The translations under genes were made by a program, and so were the position numbers. Source: Candidatus Hydrogenedens sp. (GTDB lineage: Bacteria; Hydrogenedentota; Hydrogenedentia; Hydrogenedentales; Hydrogenedentaceae). Taken from it: a DNA stretch of 56,029 nucleotides. The notes beneath the pieces are model-generated. The model had not been told where the DNA came from, searched no databases, and worked only from the letters and a program-made list of their open reading frames with translations. Shown here piece after piece: positions 30,339 to 37,916 of this stretch. The number at the start of each line of letters is the position of its first letter. The first letter of the stretch is position 1. Location of the stretch: positions 1-56,029 of the forward strand of contig JBMFRC010000021.1 in NCBI GenBank assembly GCA_049968235.1, in the 5' to 3' direction.

Positions 30339-32225
30339 TTACTCAACAACGAAACCTTCCTTTTCGAGAAGTGCTTTAATTTCAGATAGTAGCATACCCC
30401 GCGAATAGACTGTATGGTTAGGAGAAATGGGGTGAAGTATCTCGGAAAGTTTCTTGCGGTGCATTAAATCGGCAATTATGACAGAATCCTGTGCCTCTAT
30501 TAAAATAACCGGGCGTACCTTTACTCGTTTAACCGTATGCATCCAATCTTCCATTGTGGAGATAACTATATCCGGAATTTGTTGCTTACGGGTATTCTGG
30601 AATAAGTATTGTATGAATTGGTTCGGGTCTGCACCACTCTGCACTCCCTTCAGGAAGGATTCCTTAGTAATTGAATATATTGAAACAGGTCCACCATTAC
30701 TTTTCTTTTGAGCAAAAAGTTCTATCCAGATTAATTGTAACGGGTCTACTTTAATTGTGGGAACAATAATTTCAAAGTTAGGCTGGACTATCCATTCCTG
30801 TTTTTTGTTGTATTTTTCTTTCAACTTCTTTGTAGGTTCTGAAGAGAATAAAAGATATTCCCCAATTTCACTGATACGGAAATAACGGTCTTTTTTGGCA
30901 TAACCAAATTCAATAATGCCAAACCAGAAGAAAGTATTATCTATAAAATGTATATAGTTCTTCTCATCACAATTGTCTTCGGAAGGTAAATATTCCCAGA
31001 AATTGTCTTTCGTTTGTTTTAATTCATAACGGGATAACTCACAATGTCGAGCGTAAACTCTTTTCCCAAACTCATTCAGAGAATACCATGTGTAAGGTTT
31101 TAATCCCTGTAACTCCGAAAGAGTTGCCGATAAAGATAAATTTGTTTCTTCCGCTTTGATGGCTGTTTCATAAATCTTTTTAAGTCTCTCCGGAAACGAC
31201 ATATTTACAAGTTCTTCAAGGTTTACAATACGGAGTGTGTTATCCACCTGTGCAAGCAAACCTGCTTTCTCAGCCAGCCGGACCAGTGTCTCGATAGGTG
31301 GATATGCATTTTCAGGCTCATCACGGGAAATGCGTTGTTCATCGGCACGAGTAATTTGTCCCGATGAGGTTATGCGTAAGGGAGATACTGCAATTTTGCC
31401 AAGAAGATGAGATATGCGTTCTGCCAATGAAACACCACAACTCTCAATACGGCTGATTTTAATATTTGTAGGTGTGATTTGTTGTTTCAATATCTCTTTC
31501 GATTCTTTTCTCTTTTCTCTATAATGCCGAATTTCGGATAGGATACTAATAAAACGGTTAAGTCTGTTTTGCCCATTGAAACGGAAAAGTTCAAAGAGAA
31601 CAAACTGATTGAGTAATTCATCTAATGCTTCTTCAATTTCTGTATTATTATATTTAGGAAACCTTTGCCGTATTTGCTGAACAGGGACAACCCCAGTCTT
31701 GCTTTGCCATAAGAAATCAAATATTTCCCTGGCTAATCCGGAAAAAGAATAACCCGCAACATATTCCAGAACAGATTCGGGGGTTTTATATAAATTTTCT
31801 ATGATTTCATTGGCTAATGACATCCACCCAATTACACGATTTATCTTTAATTTTTGTTCCAATTCCCTGCGTTCAGAATTGGAATAATTTTGTAACGATT
31901 TATAAATAGAATTAATGTCCCCCAGACTGTTCAAGTTATCCTGAACTCTACGAATAATAGGAAGAGCTTCCGGAACTACTTTAACGCGGTTTAAATCAAA
32001 AAAGAAAAGTTTTGGGTAAAGTTTGTAAATGTAATTAATCGTTTCTTCTGAGGTTTCAAGTTTTGCGGATAAATACCGGCTCGTTAGCCCTCCCCGGCTA
32101 TTCGCAGACAACTCAAGAGCCATATAAAACGATGTTAAGTCCATCCCTTCAAAGGCGGACAATAGACTATAACTATAACGCATTATCTCGCGGACCTTTT
32201 CAAAATACAGTTTACCTTGCACCAA
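30339..32225 (-). CDS. orphan hypothetical protein (628 aa) with a C-terminal segment reminiscent of the XPB damage-recognition / helicase-associated (PF13625-like) domain
   Basis: No catalytic motif was recognised. The C-terminal ~110 aa (...DWMHTVKRVKVRPVILIEAQDSVIIADLMHRKKLSEILHPISPNHTVYSRGMLLSEIKALLEKEGFVV) resemble the small alpha/beta domain found N-terminal to XPB-type helicases. It is convergent with lolD. Confidence 0.5.
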   Translation of the reverse strand: MVQGKLYFEKVREIMRYSYSLLSAFEGMDLTSFYMALELSANSRGGLTSRYLSAKLETSEETINYIYKLYPKLFFFDLNRVKVVPEALPIIRRVQDNLNSLGDINSIYKSLQNYSNSERRELEQKLKINRVIGWMSLANEIIENLYKTPESVLEYVAGYSFSGLAREIFDFLWQSKTGVVPVQQIRQRFPKYNNTEIEEALDELLNQFVLFELFRFNGQNRLNRFISILSEIRHYREKRKESKEILKQQITPTNIKISRIESCGVSLAERISHLLGKIAVSPLRITSSGQITRADEQRISRDEPENAYPPIETLVRLAEKAGLLAQVDNTLRIVNLEELVNMSFPERLKKIYETAIKAEETNLSLSATLSELQGLKPYTWYSLNEFGKRVYARHCELSRYELKQTKDNFWEYLPSEDNCDEKNYIHFIDNTFFWFGIIEFGYAKKDRYFRISEIGEYLLFSSEPTKKLKEKYNKKQEWIVQPNFEIIVPTIKVDPLQLIWIELFAQKKSNGGPVSIYSITKESFLKGVQSGADPNQFIQYLFQNTRKQQIPDIVISTMEDWMHTVKRVKVRPVILIEAQDSVIIADLMHRKKLSEILHPISPNHTVYSRGMLLSEIKALLEKEGFVVE

Positions 32226-32325
32226 TTGAACATAACATTATATAGGAAATGCTGTGCGAGTTCAAATCGCAAAGAAGGATAATGAAAAGCCATACCTGCT
32301 CATGAAATTGGTCTTTATTCCTGTG

Positions 32326-32379
32326 CTATGCAAAAATTGCAGAGTAATTGGTGAAAAGTGCAGGTTTTGCATAGAAATT
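32326..32379 (+). promoter_or_regulatory. pair of inverted enhancer-like dyads (ATGCAAAAATTGCAG and its near-reverse-complement GTGCAGGTTTTGCAT; TGCA-N5-TGCA cores), candidate UAS for the adjacent NtrC-type activator
   Basis: 32329-32341 tgcaaaaattgca and 32360-32372 tgcaggttttgca lie about 31 bp apart (three helical turns). They sit 45-90 bp upstream of the sigma-54 -24/-12 element. Confidence 0.4.
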
Positions 32380-32402
32380 TGCGATAAGTCGTTTATAATA
32401 CA

Positions 32403-32420
32403 TTGGCATAAGTATTGCTT
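32403..32420 (+). promoter_or_regulatory. sigma-54 (RpoN) -24/-12 promoter: TGGCAT-N5-TTGCT
   Basis: GG at 32405-32406 and GC at 32417-32418 have exactly 10 nt between them, matching the consensus TGGCAC-N5-TTGCW. It lies ~45 nt upstream of ATG 32467 and an AGGAGA RBS. An NtrC-family activator is encoded 1.5 kb downstream. Confidence 0.6.
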
Positions 32421-32466
32421 ATTTATTATAGGAAAACAAAAAACCTTAACAATAAGGAGAAAGAAG

Positions 32467-32820
32467 ATGAAACAGAGATTCGTATTCACACTAAGTTTAC
32501 TGGCAGTCGTCCTGATGCTGAGTGGGATTACTATGGCACAAGGAAATGGACAGGGTGCTCAGCGAGGTTATTGCAAAACCAATTGCTATGTGGACAAAAA
32601 TGGCGATGGTGTCTGCGATAACTTCAAAGACGCCAACAATGATGGTAGATGTGATAATTGCACATGCCCGGCATCCTGCGGGAAAGGTAAAGGAAACTGC
32701 TGTAGCAATTTTGTAGATTCCAATAATGATGGCAGATGCGATAATTGCCAAAATTCTAATGCCTACTATGGTAATGGTAGGGGAAAATGCAATAGAAGAT
32801 GTTGCCCTGTAAACAAATAA
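32467..32820 (+). CDS. small secreted Cys-rich protein with three tandem Ca-loop-like repeats (D-x-N-x-D-G-x-C-D-N)
   Basis: MKQRFVFTLSLLAVVLMLSGITMAQG is a Sec signal peptide. The mature ~91 aa carry 14 Cys and the repeats VDKNGDGVCDNF, DANNDGRCDNC and DSNNDGRCDNC. The RBS is AGGAGAAAGAAG. The real start is 32467, not the track start 32254. Confidence 0.65.
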   Translation: MKQRFVFTLSLLAVVLMLSGITMAQGNGQGAQRGYCKTNCYVDKNGDGVCDNFKDANNDGRCDNCTCPASCGKGKGNCCSNFVDSNNDGRCDNCQNSNAYYGNGRGKCNRRCCPVNK

Positions 32821-32839
32821 GAAACAAAGGAAAATCATT

Positions 32840-32878
32840 GGCTTGCTCTTTAATAAAAAGGGCAAGCCTTTATTTTAT
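32840..32878 (+). terminator. rho-independent terminator after the Cys-rich protein gene
   Basis: GGCTTGC (32840-32846), a 15-nt loop, then GCAAGCC (32862-32868) followed by TTTATTTTAT. Confidence 0.6.
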
Positions 32879-32908
32879 AATATAATTATGATACATTAAA
32901 GAAAATAT

Positions 32909-34246
32909 ATGTTCTGGCAAAATAGAAAATTACTTTTTGTTTTTACAGCAATTATTGTCGGCGTAATTATTTTTATTCTTCTGGTTTCTTTTTTACGAGA
33001 GCGACAGCATAACCAACAGGTCTTTGTAGAACGAGGACAAACACTATTGCAAATTCTTTCCTCCTCTTTATCACTTCAAACACGCATGGGCTGTTATCGT
33101 GCCCAGCGAGTTGTGGAAATAATAAATAGTGTTTCGTTATCCCCGGGTATTTTGTATGTAGCGTTATTAAATCATGAAGGGAAAATAATTGCCAGTGCAG
33201 GTGAAACATCCGTCTCCCCAATAAATAAAATTGCAAAAGGAAAACATATTTATTGGGATAACGAATGTGTTTGTTTATCACAAACGATTTCTATGGACGA
33301 ACTTCAAAAAGGTCGTCAACACCGATATGGAATGGCAGTATGTCCTGACCCAACATGTGCAAATGAAAGTATGATTCCCTGGAGTGAATGGGGAACGGGT
33401 CCTTTTCTTCTGATGGTTTGTCTGAATACTCAAGAATTGAAAGGAATGAACAAATCAACCTCTATTCGGTTTGGGATATTTGCCCTGTTGAGTATGGGCA
33501 TAAGTATATTGGGCTTTGTTGTTCTGGAATTGTATCAACGAAAAGAATTGTATGCTTATGACCTAAAATTAACCCGGGAAAAAGCAAGATATAACGAACA
33601 TTTAGCACAAATAGGGGCAGGACTGGCACATGAGACAAAAAACCCATTAAGCATTGTTCGTGGGCTTGCTCAGGCAATACAGGAGGAAGTGGAGCCAATT
33701 TCAGATGCATATAAATATGCCAGTAAAATAATTGATGAGACAGACCGTTCTGTCCGGCAGATAAACAATTTTTTGGAACTGACACATCCTCATACTCCCG
33801 AAAAGAAACCTATCTCTTTACAATCTATCATTGAACAGTTGTTGAATTTGACAGATACAGATATAAAAAATAAAGGCATTTCCATTGAAGTAAAAGGAAC
33901 AGATATAACCATAGAAGCAGACCCCGAATATCTTCGTCGTGCTTTGTTAAATCTCCTTCTGAATGCAATACAGGCATGTTCCGCAGGAGATAAAATTACC
34001 CTTCAAATAGAACCCCTCGGCGATTGGATAGCCCTTCACATTATAGATACAGGAGTCGGTATTTCAGCAGAAGATTTACCTCATGTAGTAAAGCCGTATT
34101 ATTCCAAACGGAAAGGAGGCACAGGGCTTGGTTTGAGTATTGTAAATGAAATAGTTCTATTGCATGGATGGGAATTTTCTATCCAATCTCAAAAGGGAGA
34201 AGGAACAAAGGTAACTATTTCCCATATCCGCCGAATTAACAGTTGA
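32909..34246 (+). CDS. sensor histidine kinase with Cys-containing periplasmic sensing domain
   Basis: TM1 LLFVFTAIIVGVIIFILLVSF. The periplasmic ~150 aa include ...DNECVCLSQ...MAVCPDPTCANES.... TM2 IRFGIFALLSMGISILGFVVL. HisKA LAHETKNPLSIVRG. HATPase ...GVGISAEDLPHVVKPYYS...GGTGLGLSIVNEIV. Confidence 0.8.
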   Translation: MFWQNRKLLFVFTAIIVGVIIFILLVSFLRERQHNQQVFVERGQTLLQILSSSLSLQTRMGCYRAQRVVEIINSVSLSPGILYVALLNHEGKIIASAGETSVSPINKIAKGKHIYWDNECVCLSQTISMDELQKGRQHRYGMAVCPDPTCANESMIPWSEWGTGPFLLMVCLNTQELKGMNKSTSIRFGIFALLSMGISILGFVVLELYQRKELYAYDLKLTREKARYNEHLAQIGAGLAHETKNPLSIVRGLAQAIQEEVEPISDAYKYASKIIDETDRSVRQINNFLELTHPHTPEKKPISLQSIIEQLLNLTDTDIKNKGISIEVKGTDITIEADPEYLRRALLNLLLNAIQACSAGDKITLQIEPLGDWIALHIIDTGVGISAEDLPHVVKPYYSKRKGGTGLGLSIVNEIVLLHGWEFSIQSQKGEGTKVTISHIRRINS

Positions 34247-34303: not shown

Positions 34304-35614
34304 ATGAAAAAAGAAAACGCAGAAAAAGTAATTCTACTTGTTGATGATGATAATGCTCAGAGAGAATTACTCTCTCGCTATCTAACTCGGGCAGGCTTTT
34401 CTGTCCTTGCTGTTGCTAATTACAAAGATGCAAAGCCCCTTTTCGGACATGCACATCTTATTCTTCTGGATGTTCGTCTGCCGGATGCCAATGGGGTGGA
34501 GAAAATACCGGAGATAAAGGAACAGTTTCCGGGAATTCCTGTGATTTTGCTCACCGCTTTTATTGATGTCCGCGATGCCGTTCAGGCAATTAGACAGGGT
34601 GCTGTGGATTACCTTGAAAAGCCTGTAGATTTAGATGAGTTAATTGAAGTAATCCAAGAACAGCTGGGAACACTTCCGACAGATAGGACAGAAGATAGCG
34701 AATTGCCGGAAGACTTTATCTGTTATAGCACATCCATGCAAAAAGTGGTGCAGGATTGCCTTCGTGTATCTCCCACCAAAGCCACAGTGCTTATTACCGG
34801 AGAAAGTGGTGCAGGGAAAGAATGGATAGCAAGACTTATTCACCAATTTAGTGAGCGTAAAAATAAACCTCTTGTTGTTATAGATTGCACACATCTGCCA
34901 GAAACACTTGCAGAAAGTATTTTGTTTGGTCATGAACCCGGCGCTTTCACAGGGGCTATAACACAACAAAAAGGGCAACTTGAAGAGGCTAATGGAGGAA
35001 CTCTTTTTTTGGATGAAGTAGGAGAATTGCCCCTATCAGTGCAACCAAAACTATTGCGTGTTCTGGAAGGGTCACCTTTCCGAAGGATTGGTGGGACAAA
35101 AGATATACATGTTGACCTGCGTATTATTTCTGCGACCAATCGGAATTTAGAAACAGAGGTGCAGGAAGGAAAATTTCGTCAGGATTTGTTCTATCGCCTT
35201 CATGTAATCACCATTCATGTCCCTCCTTTACGAGAACGAGTAGATGATATTCTACCTCTGGCAGAATTTTTTTTGAAGCCGTATAACAAAACTTTATCAC
35301 CATCCGTACAGAGATTACTCCTCCGCTATCCGTGGTTCGGAAATGTTCGCGAATTAAGAAATGCTATGGAACGTTCTGCTATTCTTGCTAATGGTCCCAT
35401 GATTATGCCCGAAGACCTTCCAGAGATTATTCAAAATTATTCACCTTCCGATGAATCCCATCAGCCCCCTTCTTCATTACGATTGGATGAGTTAGAACGG
35501 GAGGCGATTCTTAACGCATTAAAAGAAGCAGGGGGAAATCGAACACGAACTGCGGAAATTTTAGGAATTAGTAGACGTACACTTATATATAAATTGCGGG
35601 CATACGGGTTATAA
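34304..35614 (+). CDS. sigma-54-dependent response regulator (NtrC family bacterial enhancer-binding protein)
   Basis: Receiver domain (ILLVDDDNAQRELL...LILLDVRLPDANG). AAA+ sigma-54 activation domain with Walker A GESGAGKE, the GAFTGA loop (HEPGAFTGA) and ESELFGHE-like ESILFGHE. C-terminal Fis-type HTH (GGNRTRTAEILGISRRTLIYKLRAYGL). Confidence 0.85.
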   Translation: MKKENAEKVILLVDDDNAQRELLSRYLTRAGFSVLAVANYKDAKPLFGHAHLILLDVRLPDANGVEKIPEIKEQFPGIPVILLTAFIDVRDAVQAIRQGAVDYLEKPVDLDELIEVIQEQLGTLPTDRTEDSELPEDFICYSTSMQKVVQDCLRVSPTKATVLITGESGAGKEWIARLIHQFSERKNKPLVVIDCTHLPETLAESILFGHEPGAFTGAITQQKGQLEEANGGTLFLDEVGELPLSVQPKLLRVLEGSPFRRIGGTKDIHVDLRIISATNRNLETEVQEGKFRQDLFYRLHVITIHVPPLRERVDDILPLAEFFLKPYNKTLSPSVQRLLLRYPWFGNVRELRNAMERSAILANGPMIMPEDLPEIIQNYSPSDESHQPPSSLRLDELEREAILNALKEAGGNRTRTAEILGISRRTLIYKLRAYGL

Positions 35615-35660: not shown

Positions 35661-36908
35661 ATGAATATCCATGAACACCAACCATACCCTCCTTTAAGAA
35701 ATATCGAGGCATTCCCCATTCATCATCAAGGACAAACACTTATCTGCCTTCATGACCCACTGGGATATGTAAACACCGAAATTACACTCTCACCCGCTGC
35801 ATTCTTTATTGCCGCATGTCTGGATGGAAATCATACCTCGCGGGATATTCAACTGGAATTTGCTCGTGAATTTCAAGGGGCTTTAATCCCTCGTGAACAG
35901 ATAGAAAAAATAGTTGAGTTCCTGGATGAACATGGCTTCCTCCTAAATGAACGCTTCGAGGAAATTAAAAGCAAAACAGAAAAGGATTTTTTACAGCAAG
36001 TTGTTCGCCTTCCTTATCATGCAGGGCAATCTTATTCTTCTGCAAAGCATGAATTGGGTGCCTTTTTATCCACAATTTTTACACGAACAGGGGGACCGGG
36101 ACCTTTGCCCGATAAACAACAATCTTCTGAGGATTGTATGGTCGGTTTAATTGTTCCACATATTGATTTTCAACGGGGTGCTCTGGGTTATGCCCATGCC
36201 TACTATCGACTTTATCAATGTAAAAAACCGGATACAGTTATTATCTTTGGGGTAAGTCATCAAGGGGGAGAAACACCTTATATCTTAACACGCAAACATT
36301 ACAGCACACCTTTAGGAACTATTAAAACACATCAGGATTGTGTTGAGTATTTAGCCCAGAATTCACAATTCGACCCGTTCAAATCTGAAATTATGCATCG
36401 TATGGAACATTCCATTGAATTTCAGGTGCTAATGTTGAATTATCTCTTTGGCACAGATATTCAGATAGTCCCTGTGTTATGTACCTCTATTTCAGAAGAT
36501 AGAGAACTCTCCCCAGAGGATATTCCGGAAATCCAACAATTTCTGCAAACATGTATCCAATATATCGAACATAGTGGAGAGCGAGTATTGGTCTTGTCTG
36601 CATCAGATTGGGCACATGTCGGAAAACGATTCGGTGACTCGTTTGATATTACCGAAGATATTCAAATTCAGATAAAAAACCGCGATGACGAAGACATAAA
36701 AGTAGCTTTAAATATAAACCCGGAGCATTTTTTCCATTCTGTTATGAAAGACAAAAACAGCCGTCGAGTATGTGGATTATACTCTATTTATTCTACATTG
36801 AAAGTCATAAAAGGAACCGCACACCGTGCTGAATTTCTGCATTATGGACAAGCCCCTGACCCTATTGGCGGGATTGTCTCCTTTTCAAGTATTGCCTACT
36901 TTAAGTAA
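35661..36908 (+). CDS. fusion protein with an N-terminal PqqD-like (RiPP-recognition-element-like) domain and a C-terminal MEMO1 / AmmeMemoRadiSam-protein-B-like domain
   Basis: MEMO signatures: MVGLIVPHIDFQRGALGYAHAY (compare GxIxPHAGYxYSG), MEHSIEFQVLMLNYLF (compare EHSxExQLPFL) and LSASDWAHVGKRFGD (compare SsDfSHyG). The N-terminal residues ~30-95, EITLSPAAFFIAACLDGNHTSRDIQLEFAREFQGALIPREQIEKIVEFLDEHGFLL, align by eye with PqqD ([29 protein letters not shown]...DDVVEFLQ...WI). Confidence 0.6.
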   Translation: MNIHEHQPYPPLRNIEAFPIHHQGQTLICLHDPLGYVNTEITLSPAAFFIAACLDGNHTSRDIQLEFAREFQGALIPREQIEKIVEFLDEHGFLLNERFEEIKSKTEKDFLQQVVRLPYHAGQSYSSAKHELGAFLSTIFTRTGGPGPLPDKQQSSEDCMVGLIVPHIDFQRGALGYAHAYYRLYQCKKPDTVIIFGVSHQGGETPYILTRKHYSTPLGTIKTHQDCVEYLAQNSQFDPFKSEIMHRMEHSIEFQVLMLNYLFGTDIQIVPVLCTSISEDRELSPEDIPEIQQFLQTCIQYIEHSGERVLVLSASDWAHVGKRFGDSFDITEDIQIQIKNRDDEDIKVALNINPEHFFHSVMKDKNSRRVCGLYSIYSTLKVIKGTAHRAEFLHYGQAPDPIGGIVSFSSIAYFK

Positions 36909-36917
36909 GGTGTAAAG

Positions 36918-37916
36918 ATGAATAGGAATACTATTTTGCTTATATTATTCTTCGGAATTATTTGTAATTTGCCCTGCCAATCGTATCATACCTTGATCGA
37001 CTTACATACCGCACCGGGATGGGCTTCGGAAAATGGTGGGACAACAGGCGGAGGAAAATCAAAACCTACTACAATTAAAACGATAGAAGAACTTCAAACT
37101 CTGGTCTCTACAGAAGAACCACAAACAATACTTGTAAGTGGGACCATGGGAGCAGGACTTTCTACAAAAATAAAAGTAAACTCAAACAAGACTATCATGG
37201 GTTTAGACAAGGCACTTATAAAAGGCAGTTTTACCATTAAAGATGCAAAAAACATTATCATCCGGAATTTGACGATTGAGGGTCCCGGTGCCATTGATGT
37301 GAATGCTCCATACTGTATTACAATAGATAATTCAACAAATATATGGTTAGACCATCTTGATATATACGATGGTTAGGATGGAAATGTTGATATTGTTAAT
37401 GGTTCTAACTACATTACCATATCATGGTGCAAGTTCCATTATACTTCTGCTTCGAAAAATCATAAATTGTCAACACTCATTGGTAATTCAGATGAAAAAA
37501 TATCCGACAGAGGAAAATTGAAAACTACAATGGTATATAACTGATGGGCAGAAGGCGTTGATTCGCGTACGCCAAGAGTTCGCTTTGGACAGGTGCATGT
37601 CATAAACAATCTCTACACATGCACAGAAAATGATTACTGCATTCTGGCAGGCATGGAAGCAAACTTGAGAATCGAATATAATTTATTTGTAAATGTAAGA
37701 GAACCTATCAATTTATCTCAAAAAACATTTACTGCTGTTAGCGACTCAAACAATAAATTCCTATCAGTCAAAGGGAACACTGAGGGAAAAGGAGACGCCT
37801 TTAAGCCCCCCTATAATATAACCATTATCCCATTAAATAAATTAGAAATGATTATAAAAAAGTATGCAGGAGCCAATCTTCCTCATATTAAAAACGAAAT
37901 ATTCTGTGAACAATAG
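36918..37916 (+). pseudogene. pectate lyase (polysaccharide lyase family 1) with two in-frame nonsense codons (TAG 37374-37376, TGA 37542-37544) and no frameshift
   Basis: Signal peptide, then GWASENGGTTGGGKS...ILVSGTM...IKVNSNKTIMGL...IIRNLTIEG...IWLDHLDIYDG*DGNVDIVNGSNYITISWCKFHYTSASKNHKLSTLIGNSDEKISDRGKLKTTMVYN*WAEGVDSRTPRVRFGQVHVINNLYT.... This closely parallels Bacillus or Erwinia PL1 motifs (GYASxNGGTTGG, vWIDHxxfs...DGxxDIkxgSdyVTvSwn.F..HdKxmLiGhSD, RMPRVRFGqvHvyNNYY). The track reports only the flanking pieces 36918-37376 and 37593-37916. Confidence 0.7.

What the first reader, a model, noticed from the sequence alone, without database searches (positions are those of the whole stretch)
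32326..32420. Complete sigma-54 regulatory module upstream of the Cys-rich protein gene
A near-consensus -24/-12 element TGGCATaagtaTTGCT (32404-32419, 10-nt GG-GC spacing) is preceded by two mutually inverted dyads. ATGCAAAAATTGCAG sits at 32327-32343, and GTGCAGGTTTTGCAT at 32359-32373 is its near reverse complement. They are spaced three helical turns apart. This is the expected architecture for activation by the NtrC-type bEBP encoded at 34304-35614. It implies the secreted Cys-rich protein is the regulated output, or an autoregulatory signal, of this two-component system.
Basis: seen in the sequence. Interest (0 to 1): 0.6.

Follow-up and report, generated by a model that had tools for sequence, protein, structure and literature searches.

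The report
Sigma-54 enhancer-promoter for secreted Cys-rich protein
A textbook sigma-54 promoter with two upstream activator-binding sites really does sit in front of a small secreted cysteine-rich protein gene next to its sensor kinase and activator genes; the layout is conserved across phyla and resembles the E. coli ZraPSR envelope and zinc stress system, with an unrelated small protein in ZraP's place.

Summary
TGGCATaagtaTTGCT (32404-32419) is the only exact TGGCAY-N5-TTGCW in 56 kb, against 0.08 expected by chance.

In seven orthologous loci (Cys-rich protein down to about 53% identity; one high-GC locus with a longer repeat protein) the dyads, the -24/-12 element and all spacings are invariant, while the rest of the intergenic DNA and even the upstream gene differ. 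A scan of 185,579 species genomes gave 44 hits against about 0.3 expected. A deltaproteobacterial hit has the same dyads, promoter, repeat-family protein, kinase and activator. Another places the module before a ZraP-family (LTXXQ) protein.

The kinase is ZraS-like. The regulator has an intact GAFTGA motif and an AtoC-like helix-turn-helix, and AtoC's mapped site also uses TGCA half-sites. E. coli ZraR's site has the same layout, two inverted sites 31 bp apart.

A conserved terminator follows the Cys-rich gene. This is an ordinary sigma-54/bEBP module and a new variant of the ZraPSR kind. rpoN was not seen directly, and the signal and the protein's role remain inferred.

The parts
32329..32341 (.). 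Distal enhancer site (UAS1), TGCAAAAATTGCA. The extended arm is CTATGCAAAAATTGCAG, 32326-32342. Its centre is at about -94 from the predicted transcription start.
   Evidence: It is conserved in all 8 orthologous sequences, with one half-site TGTA in L006.
32359..32371 (.). Proximal enhancer site (UAS2), TGCAGGTTTTGCA. It is the inverted copy of UAS1, 30 bp centre to centre. Its centre is at about -64 from the predicted start.
   Evidence: TGCA...T.TGCA is invariant in alignment A4.
32384..32399 (.). Conserved AT-rich block TAAGTCGTTTATAAT between UAS2 and the promoter. It is IHF-like: on the complement it has one mismatch to WATCAANNNNTTR, and L006 and L030 match perfectly. It overlaps a sigma-70-like -10 hexamer, TATAAT at 32394-32399. 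Its role is uncertain.
   Evidence: Alignments A1 and A4 and the sigma-70 scan. It is not kept in high-GC L022.
32404..32419 (+). Sigma-54 -24/-12 promoter element TGGCAT-N5-TTGCT. The transcription start is predicted at about 32429-32431.
   Evidence: It is the only exact consensus match in the window. TGGCA and TTGCT are invariant in 8 orthologous sequences. It is the only such match in each orthologous locus.
32454..32459 (+). Shine-Dalgarno sequence AAGGAG, 7 nt before the ATG.
   Evidence: conserved in A1 and A4.
32467..32820 (+). Gene for a 117-aa secreted protein rich in Cys and Asp. It has a signal peptide and three (N)FVDxNxDGxCDN repeats. It matches no Pfam or NCBIfam model in the copies searched.
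   Evidence: The family has 2445 50%-identity clusters at E<=1e-3.
32840..32878 (+). Intrinsic terminator: a 12-bp G+C-rich hairpin followed by a U-run, between the Cys-rich gene and the kinase gene.
   Evidence: The fold has z = -4.95, and the hairpin is kept with compensatory changes in L003 and L006.
32909..34246 (+). Membrane sensor histidine kinase, ZraS-like over its full length. It has two transmembrane segments, a periplasmic domain with a conserved CPDPxC motif, and HisKA plus HATPase_c domains.
   Evidence: best model ZraS, 203 bits; 27% identity over 439 aa to E. coli ZraS.
34304..35614 (+). NtrC-family response regulator and bacterial enhancer-binding protein: receiver domain, AAA+ domain with GAFTGA, and a Fis-type helix-turn-helix resembling AtoC's.
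   Evidence: best model AtoC, 424 bits; GAFTGA at residue 213; HTH GISRRTLIYKL against AtoC GISRRALMYKL.
35661..36908 (+). Memo-family protein with an unannotated N-terminal domain that looks PqqD-like. It is syntenic downstream of the regulator in the low-GC Hydrogenedentes clade only. It is probably in the kinase-regulator operon and is not part of the cross-phylum core.

Best explanation
The 242-bp intergenic region upstream of the Cys-rich gene carries a functional sigma-54 promoter (-24/-12 at 32404-32419). It is driven by two enhancer sites (TGCA-N5-TGCA, mutually inverted, 30 bp apart, centred near -64 and -94).

The proposed mechanism runs as follows.
1. The membrane kinase (32909-34246), which resembles ZraS, senses a periplasmic cue and phosphorylates the adjacent AtoC/ZraR-like regulator (34304-35614).
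2. Regulator dimers on the two dyads assemble into the active AAA+ ring. DNA bending at the conserved AT-rich block between enhancer and promoter may help.
3. The GAFTGA loops contact sigma-54 holoenzyme bound at -24/-12 and drive open-complex formation.
4. The result is a short, terminator-bounded, monocistronic mRNA for a small secreted Cys/Asp-repeat protein.

By analogy with ZraP in ZraPSR, this protein is most likely the periplasmic effector of the system, a metal- or envelope-related binder that may also feed back on the kinase.

Shown by computation: the sequence elements, their cross-species and cross-phylum conservation and phasing, the domain content of kinase and regulator, and the terminator.

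Inferred: that the local regulator binds these dyads, that sigma-54 is present, the nature of the signal, and the role of the Cys-rich protein.
For: - The consensus -24/-12 element is unique in 56 kb.
- The dyad pair is far above chance.
- Footprint: the dyads, TGGCA, TTGCT and every spacing are invariant across 8 orthologous sequences. This holds at about 53% protein identity and across a G+C shift, while the flanks diverge.
- The module stays with the Cys-rich gene when the upstream neighbour changes, from a Helicase_C_3 gene to an OEP-MFP-ABC2 efflux operon.
- In each orthologous locus it is the only sigma-54 consensus and the only TGCA-N5-TGCA pair.
- The genome-wide scan gave 44 hits against about 0.3 expected. 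The distance from UAS2 to GG clusters at 40, 49-53 and 60-63 bp, which is helical phasing.
- Deltaproteobacterial L048 has the same dyads, promoter, family protein (E 1.5e-11), kinase and bEBP.
- L036 has a bEBP, the module and an LTXXQ (ZraP/CpxP-family) protein.
- A metagenome scan with this geometry returned only this operon plus 4 loci unrelated to it (3 distinct sequences).
- The regulator has an intact GAFTGA, and its HTH matches AtoC's. AtoC's verified site in E. coli is built from TGCA half-sites (PMC3118216).
- The E. coli ZraR enhancer is two inverted sites 31 bp apart beside sigma-54 promoters (PMC4987338).
- The kinase's best model is ZraS, end to end.
- The terminator is conserved.
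Against: - There are no experimental data: no mapped transcription start and no binding assay.
- rpoN was not found in the window or in any held locus, so its presence is only inferred from the GAFTGA-bearing bEBP and the conserved promoter.
- A sigma-70-like TAGAAA-16-TATAAT (10 of 12 positions) lies just upstream at 32372-32399 and could give sigma-54-independent transcription.
- The enhancer is unusually close to the promoter (centres near -64 and -94).
- The IHF-like site has a mismatch in the window, and no IHF/HU gene was seen in the window.
- Many TGCA-N5-TGCA modules in other phyla have no bEBP gene within 8 kb, so adjacency is not a general rule.
- The Cys-rich protein has no detectable similarity to ZraP, and its structure model is poor (pLDDT 48).
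Confidence: 0.8

Rival explanations
1. The gene is transcribed by sigma-70 holoenzyme from TAGAAA-16-TATAAT (32372-32399). The dyads would then be operators for an ordinary activator or repressor, and the -24/-12 match would be incidental.
For: The sigma-70 scan gives a 10 of 12 match at 32372-32399. GATAAT or TATAAT is kept at that position in the low-GC orthologues.
Against: Sigma-70-like matches in this AT-rich region are near chance (6 found, 3.6 expected). The -35 hexamer is poor and variable. The element is absent in high-GC L022 and L048, whereas TGGCA-N6-TTGC is invariant. A basal sigma-70 promoter alongside the sigma-54 promoter is not excluded.
Confidence: 0.05
2. The promoter is sigma-54 dependent, but the dyads are bound by a different bEBP encoded elsewhere. 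The adjacent kinase-regulator pair would control other genes.
For: Many modules of this type in Methylophilaceae, Acidobacteria and Sphaerochaeta have no bEBP gene within the 8-kb locus. L022 carries two bEBP genes. Binding specificity was not tested.
Against: Every locus where the module precedes a repeat-family protein has a kinase and a bEBP immediately downstream. This holds for the window, L003, L006/L018/L064, L030, L059, L060, L062, L067, L022 and L048, across two phyla. The HTH matches AtoC, which binds TGCA half-sites.
Confidence: 0.1
3. The dyads regulate the divergently transcribed gene (30339-32225, minus strand) rather than the Cys-rich gene.
For: The dyads lie in a shared intergenic region, 100-140 bp from the divergent gene's start. 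In E. coli, ZraR sites serve both directions.
Against: In L006, L030 and L059 the divergent gene is replaced by an unrelated efflux operon, yet the dyads keep their exact distance to the -24/-12 element. No sigma-54 consensus exists on the minus strand. The divergent gene has its own conserved sigma-70-like promoter at 32265-32237.
Confidence: 0.03
4. The motifs coincide by chance in AT-rich intergenic DNA.
For: One exact -24/-12 match appears in 8 of 100 shuffles of the window.
Against: The consensus co-occurs with a rare dyad pair. All elements are invariant across 8 orthologous sequences and recur across phyla.
Confidence: 0.01

Closest known systems
ZraPSR of E. coli and Salmonella (zinc-associated envelope stress system)
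   Same: - The kinase's best NCBIfam model is ZraS over its full length, with 27% identity to E. coli ZraS including the periplasmic part.
- The regulator is a receiver-AAA+-HTH_8 bEBP.
- A small periplasmic protein gene sits next to the kinase-regulator genes and is driven by a sigma-54 promoter.
- The enhancer consists of two mutually inverted ~15-bp sites with an A5T/AT5 core, 30 bp (here) or 31 bp (E. coli) centre to centre.
- Modules of the same TGCA type drive a true LTXXQ (ZraP-family) protein in deltaproteobacterial L036.
   Different: - The small protein is not LTXXQ/CpxP/ZraP family. It is a Cys/Asp-repeat protein with no Pfam or NCBIfam match.
- The half-site letters differ: TGCA...TGCA here, GAGT...ACTC in E. 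coli.
- The small gene is co-directional and upstream of the kinase, separated from it by a terminator, rather than divergent.
- No second sigma-54 promoter precedes the kinase-regulator genes.
- The enhancer is closer to the promoter.
- Scores are far below the ZraS and ZraR equivalog cut-offs.
- Metal responsiveness is untested.
AtoSC-atoDAEB of E. coli
   Same: - The regulator's best NCBIfam model is AtoC (424 bits).
- The recognition helices are nearly identical: GISRRTLIYKL here, GISRRALMYKL in AtoC.
- The AtoC site is an inverted pair of sites built on TGCA half-sites upstream of a sigma-54 promoter (PMC3118216).
   Different: - The AtoC half-sites are spaced N6 rather than N5, and its two 20-bp sites abut (about 21 bp) instead of lying 30 bp apart.
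- The score is below the AtoC cut-off of 714.
- The kinase resembles ZraS more than AtoS.
- The target is a secreted small protein, not a catabolic operon.
NtrBC-glnAp2 (the paradigm sigma-54 enhancer)
   Same: Tandem dyad enhancer sites about three helical turns apart activate a GG-N10-GC promoter through a phosphorylated receiver-AAA+-Fis-HTH regulator (established knowledge).
   Different: - The kinase is a membrane sensor, not cytoplasmic NtrB.
- NtrC sites are 17-bp TGCACC-N5-GGTGCA dyads (established knowledge, not tested here).
- The target gene is unrelated to nitrogen assimilation.

Membership tests
Sigma-54-dependent promoter with bEBP enhancer | GG at -24 and GC at -12, 10-nt spacing, match to TGGCAC-N5-TTGCW | tested here: met
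   TGGCATaagtaTTGCT at 32404-32419 is the only exact match in the window. It is invariant in orthologues.
Sigma-54-dependent promoter with bEBP enhancer | Upstream dyad-symmetric activator sites, conserved and phased with the promoter | tested here: met
   Two TGCA-N5-TGCA sites lie 30 bp apart and are conserved. Distances to GG across phyla fall at 40, about 51 and about 61 bp.
Sigma-54-dependent promoter with bEBP enhancer | A bEBP with an AAA+ domain, a GAFTGA loop and a DNA-binding domain is available | tested here: met
   Sigma54_activat at E 2e-67, plus HTH_8. GAFTGA is present.
Sigma-54-dependent promoter with bEBP enhancer | rpoN present in the genome | not testable with these tools
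   No RpoN-box ORF was found in the window or in any held locus.
Sigma-54-dependent promoter with bEBP enhancer | Transcription start about 12 nt downstream of the GC, dependent on sigma-54 and on the activator | not testable with these tools
   This needs 5'-end mapping or genetics.
ZraPSR three-component system | ZraS-type membrane kinase with a periplasmic sensor domain | tested here: inconclusive
   The best model is ZraS, end to end, but at 203 bits against a cut-off of 479. Identity to E. coli ZraS is 27%.
ZraPSR three-component system | ZraR-type bEBP binding two inverted repeats between sigma-54 promoters | tested here: inconclusive
   The layout is the same (30 against 31 bp), but the half-sites differ and there is a single promoter. 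The ZraR model scores 348 bits against a cut-off of 760.
ZraPSR three-component system | Accessory periplasmic protein of the LTXXQ (ZraP/CpxP/Spy) family | tested here: not met
   The Cys-rich protein has no Pfam or NCBIfam hit. It is a repeat protein of another family.
ZraPSR three-component system | Induction by zinc, lead or envelope stress, and repression by the accessory protein | not testable with these tools
   This is an experimental property (PMC4987338).
AtoSC-atoDAEB | AtoC equivalog, AtoS kinase, ato catabolic target genes | tested here: not met
   AtoC scores 424 bits against a cut-off of 714. The kinase is closer to ZraS than to AtoS. The target is a secreted small protein.

The most novel reading that the evidence does not exclude
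The (N)FVDxNxDGxCDN-repeat proteins may be a new class of periplasmic accessory or effector protein for ZraS-like kinase and bEBP systems, standing where ZraP stands in ZraPSR. Possible roles are binding of a metal or divalent cation, redox buffering, and feedback on the kinase.

This large uncharacterized family of small secreted proteins has more than 2,400 clusters at 50% identity. The association recurs in Hydrogenedentes and Deltaproteobacteria. Distant family members sit next to CDF metal exporters in Kapaibacteria.

A more speculative reading is that the protein is a substrate of the downstream PqqD-like/Memo fusion and acts as a secreted autoinducing signal.
Probability: 0.3. Interest if true: 0.55.

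Novelty: new variant of a known kind. Interest (0 to 1): 0.35.

Why it matters
The regulatory logic itself is textbook, so confirming it mainly gives a clean, testable annotation for an uncultured phylum (Hydrogenedentes).

The added value is twofold. First, TGCA-N5-TGCA double dyads at helically phased distances emerge as a cross-phylum enhancer type for AtoC/ZraR-like activators, which can be used to predict regulons.

Second, a very large family of small secreted Cys/Asp-repeat proteins with no known function gets its first regulatory context. It is a ZraPSR-like envelope- or metal-sensing circuit, and that context points to concrete experiments: metal induction and binding, and feedback on the kinase.

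Tried and rejected
- Pfam and NCBIfam scans of the Cys-rich protein found nothing.
- A profile search of the family against PDB sequences found nothing.
- The AlphaFold2 model built on the 13-sequence alignment was unusable (pLDDT 48), so no fold search was run.
- The precomputed label 'PF27309 MJ0753_N (faint)' on distant homologues could not be interpreted. The model is absent from the local Pfam copy, and no paper mentions MJ0753.
- Direct evidence for rpoN was sought and not found. There is no RpoN-box ORF in the window or in any fetched locus, and no paper links Hydrogenedentes with sigma-54.
- An IHF/HU gene was sought in the window by signature and not found.
- Rfam found no known RNA in the window or in the Sphaerochaeta loci.
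- A minus-strand sigma-54 promoter serving the divergent gene or efflux operon was considered and rejected, because no match exists.
- Distant Kapaibacteria homologues and the homologue next to an ECF sigma factor gene have no sigma-54 consensus. The promoter therefore belongs to the kinase-bEBP-linked subset, not to the whole family.
- My first attempt at the collection scan failed on pattern syntax. It was rerun as the reverse complement.

Full report
**Observation.**
The window is a contig of a Candidatus Hydrogenedens MAG. Reading 31800-33000 confirms TGGCATaagtaTTGCT at 32404-32419. It is the only exact TGGCAY-N5-TTGCW in 56 kb on either strand, against 0.08 expected. With one mismatch allowed there are three matches, which is the chance level.

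The two dyads are real but 1-2 nt off the stated coordinates. ATGCAAAAATTGCAG is at 32328-32342 and GTGCAGGTTTTGCAT at 32358-32372. The cores TGCA-N5-TGCA are at 32329-32341 and 32359-32371, with centres 30 bp apart. The repeat finder gives 16-nt arms that are 88% complementary. TGCA-N5-TGCA occurs 4 times in the window against 0.6 expected, and two of the four are this pair.

With GC at -13/-12, the predicted start is near 32429. That places the dyad centres at about -64 and -94. The Shine-Dalgarno AAGGAG is at 32454-32459 and the ATG at 32467.

**Genes.**
The downstream ORF (32467-32820) encodes a 117-aa protein. It has a Sec-type signal peptide and three (N)FVDxNxDGxCDN repeats separated by Gly-rich and Cys-rich linkers. 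It has no Pfam or NCBIfam match.

A 12-bp G+C-rich hairpin plus U-run follows at 32840-32878 (z = -4.95). It is kept with compensatory changes in orthologues. The Cys-rich gene therefore looks like a terminator-bounded monocistronic unit.

Four further genes follow.
- A membrane histidine kinase lies at 32909-34246.
- A receiver/Sigma54_activat/HTH_8 regulator lies at 34304-35614. It has an intact GAFTGA.
- A Memo-family gene lies at 35661-36908.
- A pectate-lyase-like gene follows.

NCBIfam places the kinase nearest ZraS over its whole length (203 bits). It places the regulator nearest AtoC (424 bits), then NtrC and ZraR. All scores are below the equivalog cut-offs. BLASTP of the kinase against E. 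coli ZraS gives 27% identity over 439 residues, including the periplasmic part.

**Comparative evidence for the module.**
Homologues of the Cys-rich protein at 76% and 53% identity lie on metagenome contigs with the same gene order: Cys-rich, kinase, bEBP, Memo, pectate lyase. Pattern scans added further orthologous loci: L030 and L022 (genomes) and L059, L060, L062, L064 and L067 (metagenomes).

I aligned eight distinct upstream regions, including one high-GC Hydrogenedentes genome. The invariant columns are essentially both dyads, TGGCA, TTGCT and their spacing. The rest of the intergenic DNA diverges.

The upstream neighbour differs between lineages. It is a Helicase_C_3 gene in the window and L003, and an OEP-MFP-ABC2 efflux operon in L006, L030 and L059. 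The dyads therefore travel with the Cys-rich gene, not with the divergent gene. In each orthologous locus this is the only sigma-54 consensus and the only TGCA-N5-TGCA pair.

**Cross-phylum recurrence.**
I scanned one genome from each of 185,579 species for two TGCA-N5-TGCA dyads 15-19 nt apart followed 25-55 nt later by TGGCA-N6-TTGC. The scan gave 44 hits where about 0.3 are expected (my estimate from base counts). A handful are coding-sequence coincidences, for example MCP genes.

The intergenic hits fall into clades: Hydrogenedentes, Deltaproteobacteria, Acidobacteria, Methylophilaceae, Spirochaetes and Poribacteria. Their UAS2-to-GG distances cluster at 40, 49-53 and 60-63 bp, that is, steps of one helical turn.

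- In deltaproteobacterial L048 the module precedes a secreted VDxDGDGxCD-repeat protein that matches the family profile (E 1.5e-11), followed by a kinase and a bEBP.
- In L022 it precedes a 310-aa lipoprotein made of the same repeats, a second family member, a kinase and two bEBPs.
- In L036 a bEBP gene is followed by the module and by a Gly/Met/His-rich protein of the LTXXQ (ZraP/CpxP/Spy) family.
- In Acidobacteria it precedes small Gly-rich secreted proteins.

The metagenome scan used the Hydrogenedentes geometry. It returned this operon plus four loci unrelated to it (three distinct sequences: two coding-sequence matches and one sequence seen on two soil contigs). This suggests a single-target regulon at this stringency.

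**Link between regulator and site.**
The regulator's helix-turn-helix is GGNRTRTAEILGISRRTLIYKLRAYGL. AtoC's is EGNRTRTALMLGISRRALMYKLQEYGI, which is almost identical. ZraR's differs (GITRKTLLAKL).

The experimentally verified AtoC site is an inverted 40-bp palindrome of two 20-bp sites (PMC3118216). In the E. coli sequence it reads GCTATGCAGAAATTTGCACA / TGCGCAATTTTCTGCATAGC, that is, TGCA half-sites with N6 spacing.

The E. coli zraP-zraS intergenic region shows two mutually inverted sites, GAGTAAAAATGACTC and GAGTCATTTTTACTC. They lie 31 bp centre to centre between two sigma-54 promoters. ZraR is known to drive zraP and zraSR from sigma-54 promoters (PMC4987338).

The window therefore combines AtoC-like half-sites with a ZraR-like layout, alongside a ZraS-like kinase.

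**Mechanism.**
The best-supported reading has four steps.
1. The kinase senses a periplasmic cue. Its sensor domain carries a conserved CPDPxC and further Cys residues in the low-GC clade.
2. The kinase phosphorylates the regulator, which occupies the two dyads and oligomerises.
3. The regulator activates sigma-54 holoenzyme at -24/-12.
4. The cell then makes a burst of the small secreted protein.

The conserved block TAAGTCGTTTATAAT (32384-32399) lies between enhancer and promoter. It matches the IHF consensus perfectly in L006 and L030 and with one mismatch in the window. It also overlaps a sigma-70-like -10 hexamer, and it is absent in high-GC L022. Its role is open.

The kinase-regulator genes have no sigma-54 promoter. 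They are presumably expressed by read-through or from a weak constitutive promoter downstream of the terminator.

The function of the Cys-rich protein is inferred from three points. It occupies ZraP's position. Its repeats resemble DxDxDG-type cation-binding loops with added cysteines (my reading, not tested). Distant family members in Kapaibacteria sit directly upstream of CDF cation-efflux genes. The family is large, with 2445 clusters at E<=1e-3, and is uncharacterised.

**Rivals.**
- A sigma-70 promoter at 32372-32399 cannot be excluded as a basal promoter. It is at chance level for this AT-rich DNA and is not conserved in GC-rich orthologues.
- Control by a distant bEBP is possible, but kinase-bEBP synteny in every family-protein locus, across two phyla, argues against it.
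- Regulation of the divergent gene is contradicted by the change of neighbour.
- Chance is excluded by conservation.

**What is missing.**
rpoN was not seen. No literature links Hydrogenedentes with sigma-54. There are no expression or binding data.

**Verdict.**
The regulatory module is an ordinary sigma-54/bEBP enhancer-promoter. The three-gene system is best described as a variant of the ZraPSR kind with an unrelated, uncharacterised accessory protein. It is not a member of ZraPSR, because the LTXXQ criterion fails and scores are below the equivalog cut-offs. Interest is modest.

Noticed in passing
L013, L028, L031, L032, L041, L042, L046, L054 (Sphaerochaeta/Spirochaetales), e.g. reverse complement of L042 at 2295-2700: The same double-dyad plus sigma-54 module is followed by no ORF. 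Instead there are 2-3 tandem sigma-54-type promoters, 180-260 bp apart in most loci. Each is followed by a conserved ACAGAGCAACAnTTTTTTCAnACnTCCTCCTT with an anti-Shine-Dalgarno-like CCUCC. These look like tandem sigma-54-dependent small RNAs with Qrr-like logic. No Rfam family matches.
   Followed up: partly
window 35661-36020: The Memo-family protein has an extra N-terminal domain of about 115 aa. Its only family hits, all sub-threshold, are PqqD-type peptide chaperones (Pfam PqqD E 0.063; NCBIfam ScmD E 5e-4). A fusion of a RiPP-recognition-like domain to a Memo enzyme next to a small Cys-rich protein gene may be worth a structural check.
   Followed up: partly
window 36918-37916: The pectate-lyase-like gene aligns in a single frame with the 330-aa orthologues. 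It carries two in-frame stops: CAG(Q) to TAG at 37374-37376, and a Trp codon changed to a stop in the YNWWAEG motif. It is either a pseudogene in this MAG or contains sequence errors.
   Followed up: yes
L007 6001-7568; L012 1279-2805: Distant homologues of the Cys-rich protein in Kapaibacteria carry a T9SS sorting domain. They sit immediately upstream of a Cation_efflux (CDF) transporter gene, which hints at a metal link for the family. They have no sigma-54 consensus.
   Followed up: partly
L036 (reoriented 86-1168): A deltaproteobacterial locus has a bEBP gene, then the same TGCA-N5-TGCA x2 plus sigma-54 module, then a Gly/Met/His-rich LTXXQ (ZraP/CpxP-family) protein. It is a bona fide ZraP-like arrangement that uses the TGCA enhancer type.
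   Followed up: yes
Genome-contig hits L013-L056: The distance from the proximal dyad centre to the -24 GG clusters at 40, 49-53 and 60-63 bp across phyla. These are one-helical-turn steps, as expected if the activator must sit on one face of the DNA relative to the promoter.
   Followed up: yes
L019, L021, L024, L026, L034, L038, L039, L043, L049; L015, L025, L033, L044, L055, L056 (Methylophilaceae): In Methylophilus and Methylotenera the same module precedes one of two genes. One encodes a 560-580-aa polytopic membrane protein. The other encodes a ~215-236-aa protein, with a kinase and bEBP nearby in L055 and L056. Neither protein was identified.
   Followed up: no
window 33300-33390 (kinase residues ~140-170); alignment: The periplasmic domain of the kinase carries a strictly conserved CPDPxC motif and further conserved Cys residues in the low-GC Hydrogenedentes clade. 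These are absent from L022, L048 and ZraS, and could be a thiol/disulfide or soft-metal sensing site.
   Followed up: no
window 32237-32265 (minus strand): A sigma-70-like promoter, TTGAAC-17-TATAAT (10 of 12), serves the divergent Helicase_C_3 gene. It is conserved in L003-L005.
   Followed up: no
L006 905-5732; L030 1373-5006; L059 8977-12611: In three Hydrogenedentes lineages an OEP / CzcB-like MFP / two ABC-2 permease efflux operon is transcribed divergently from the Cys-rich gene. No sigma-54 promoter was found for it.
   Followed up: partly
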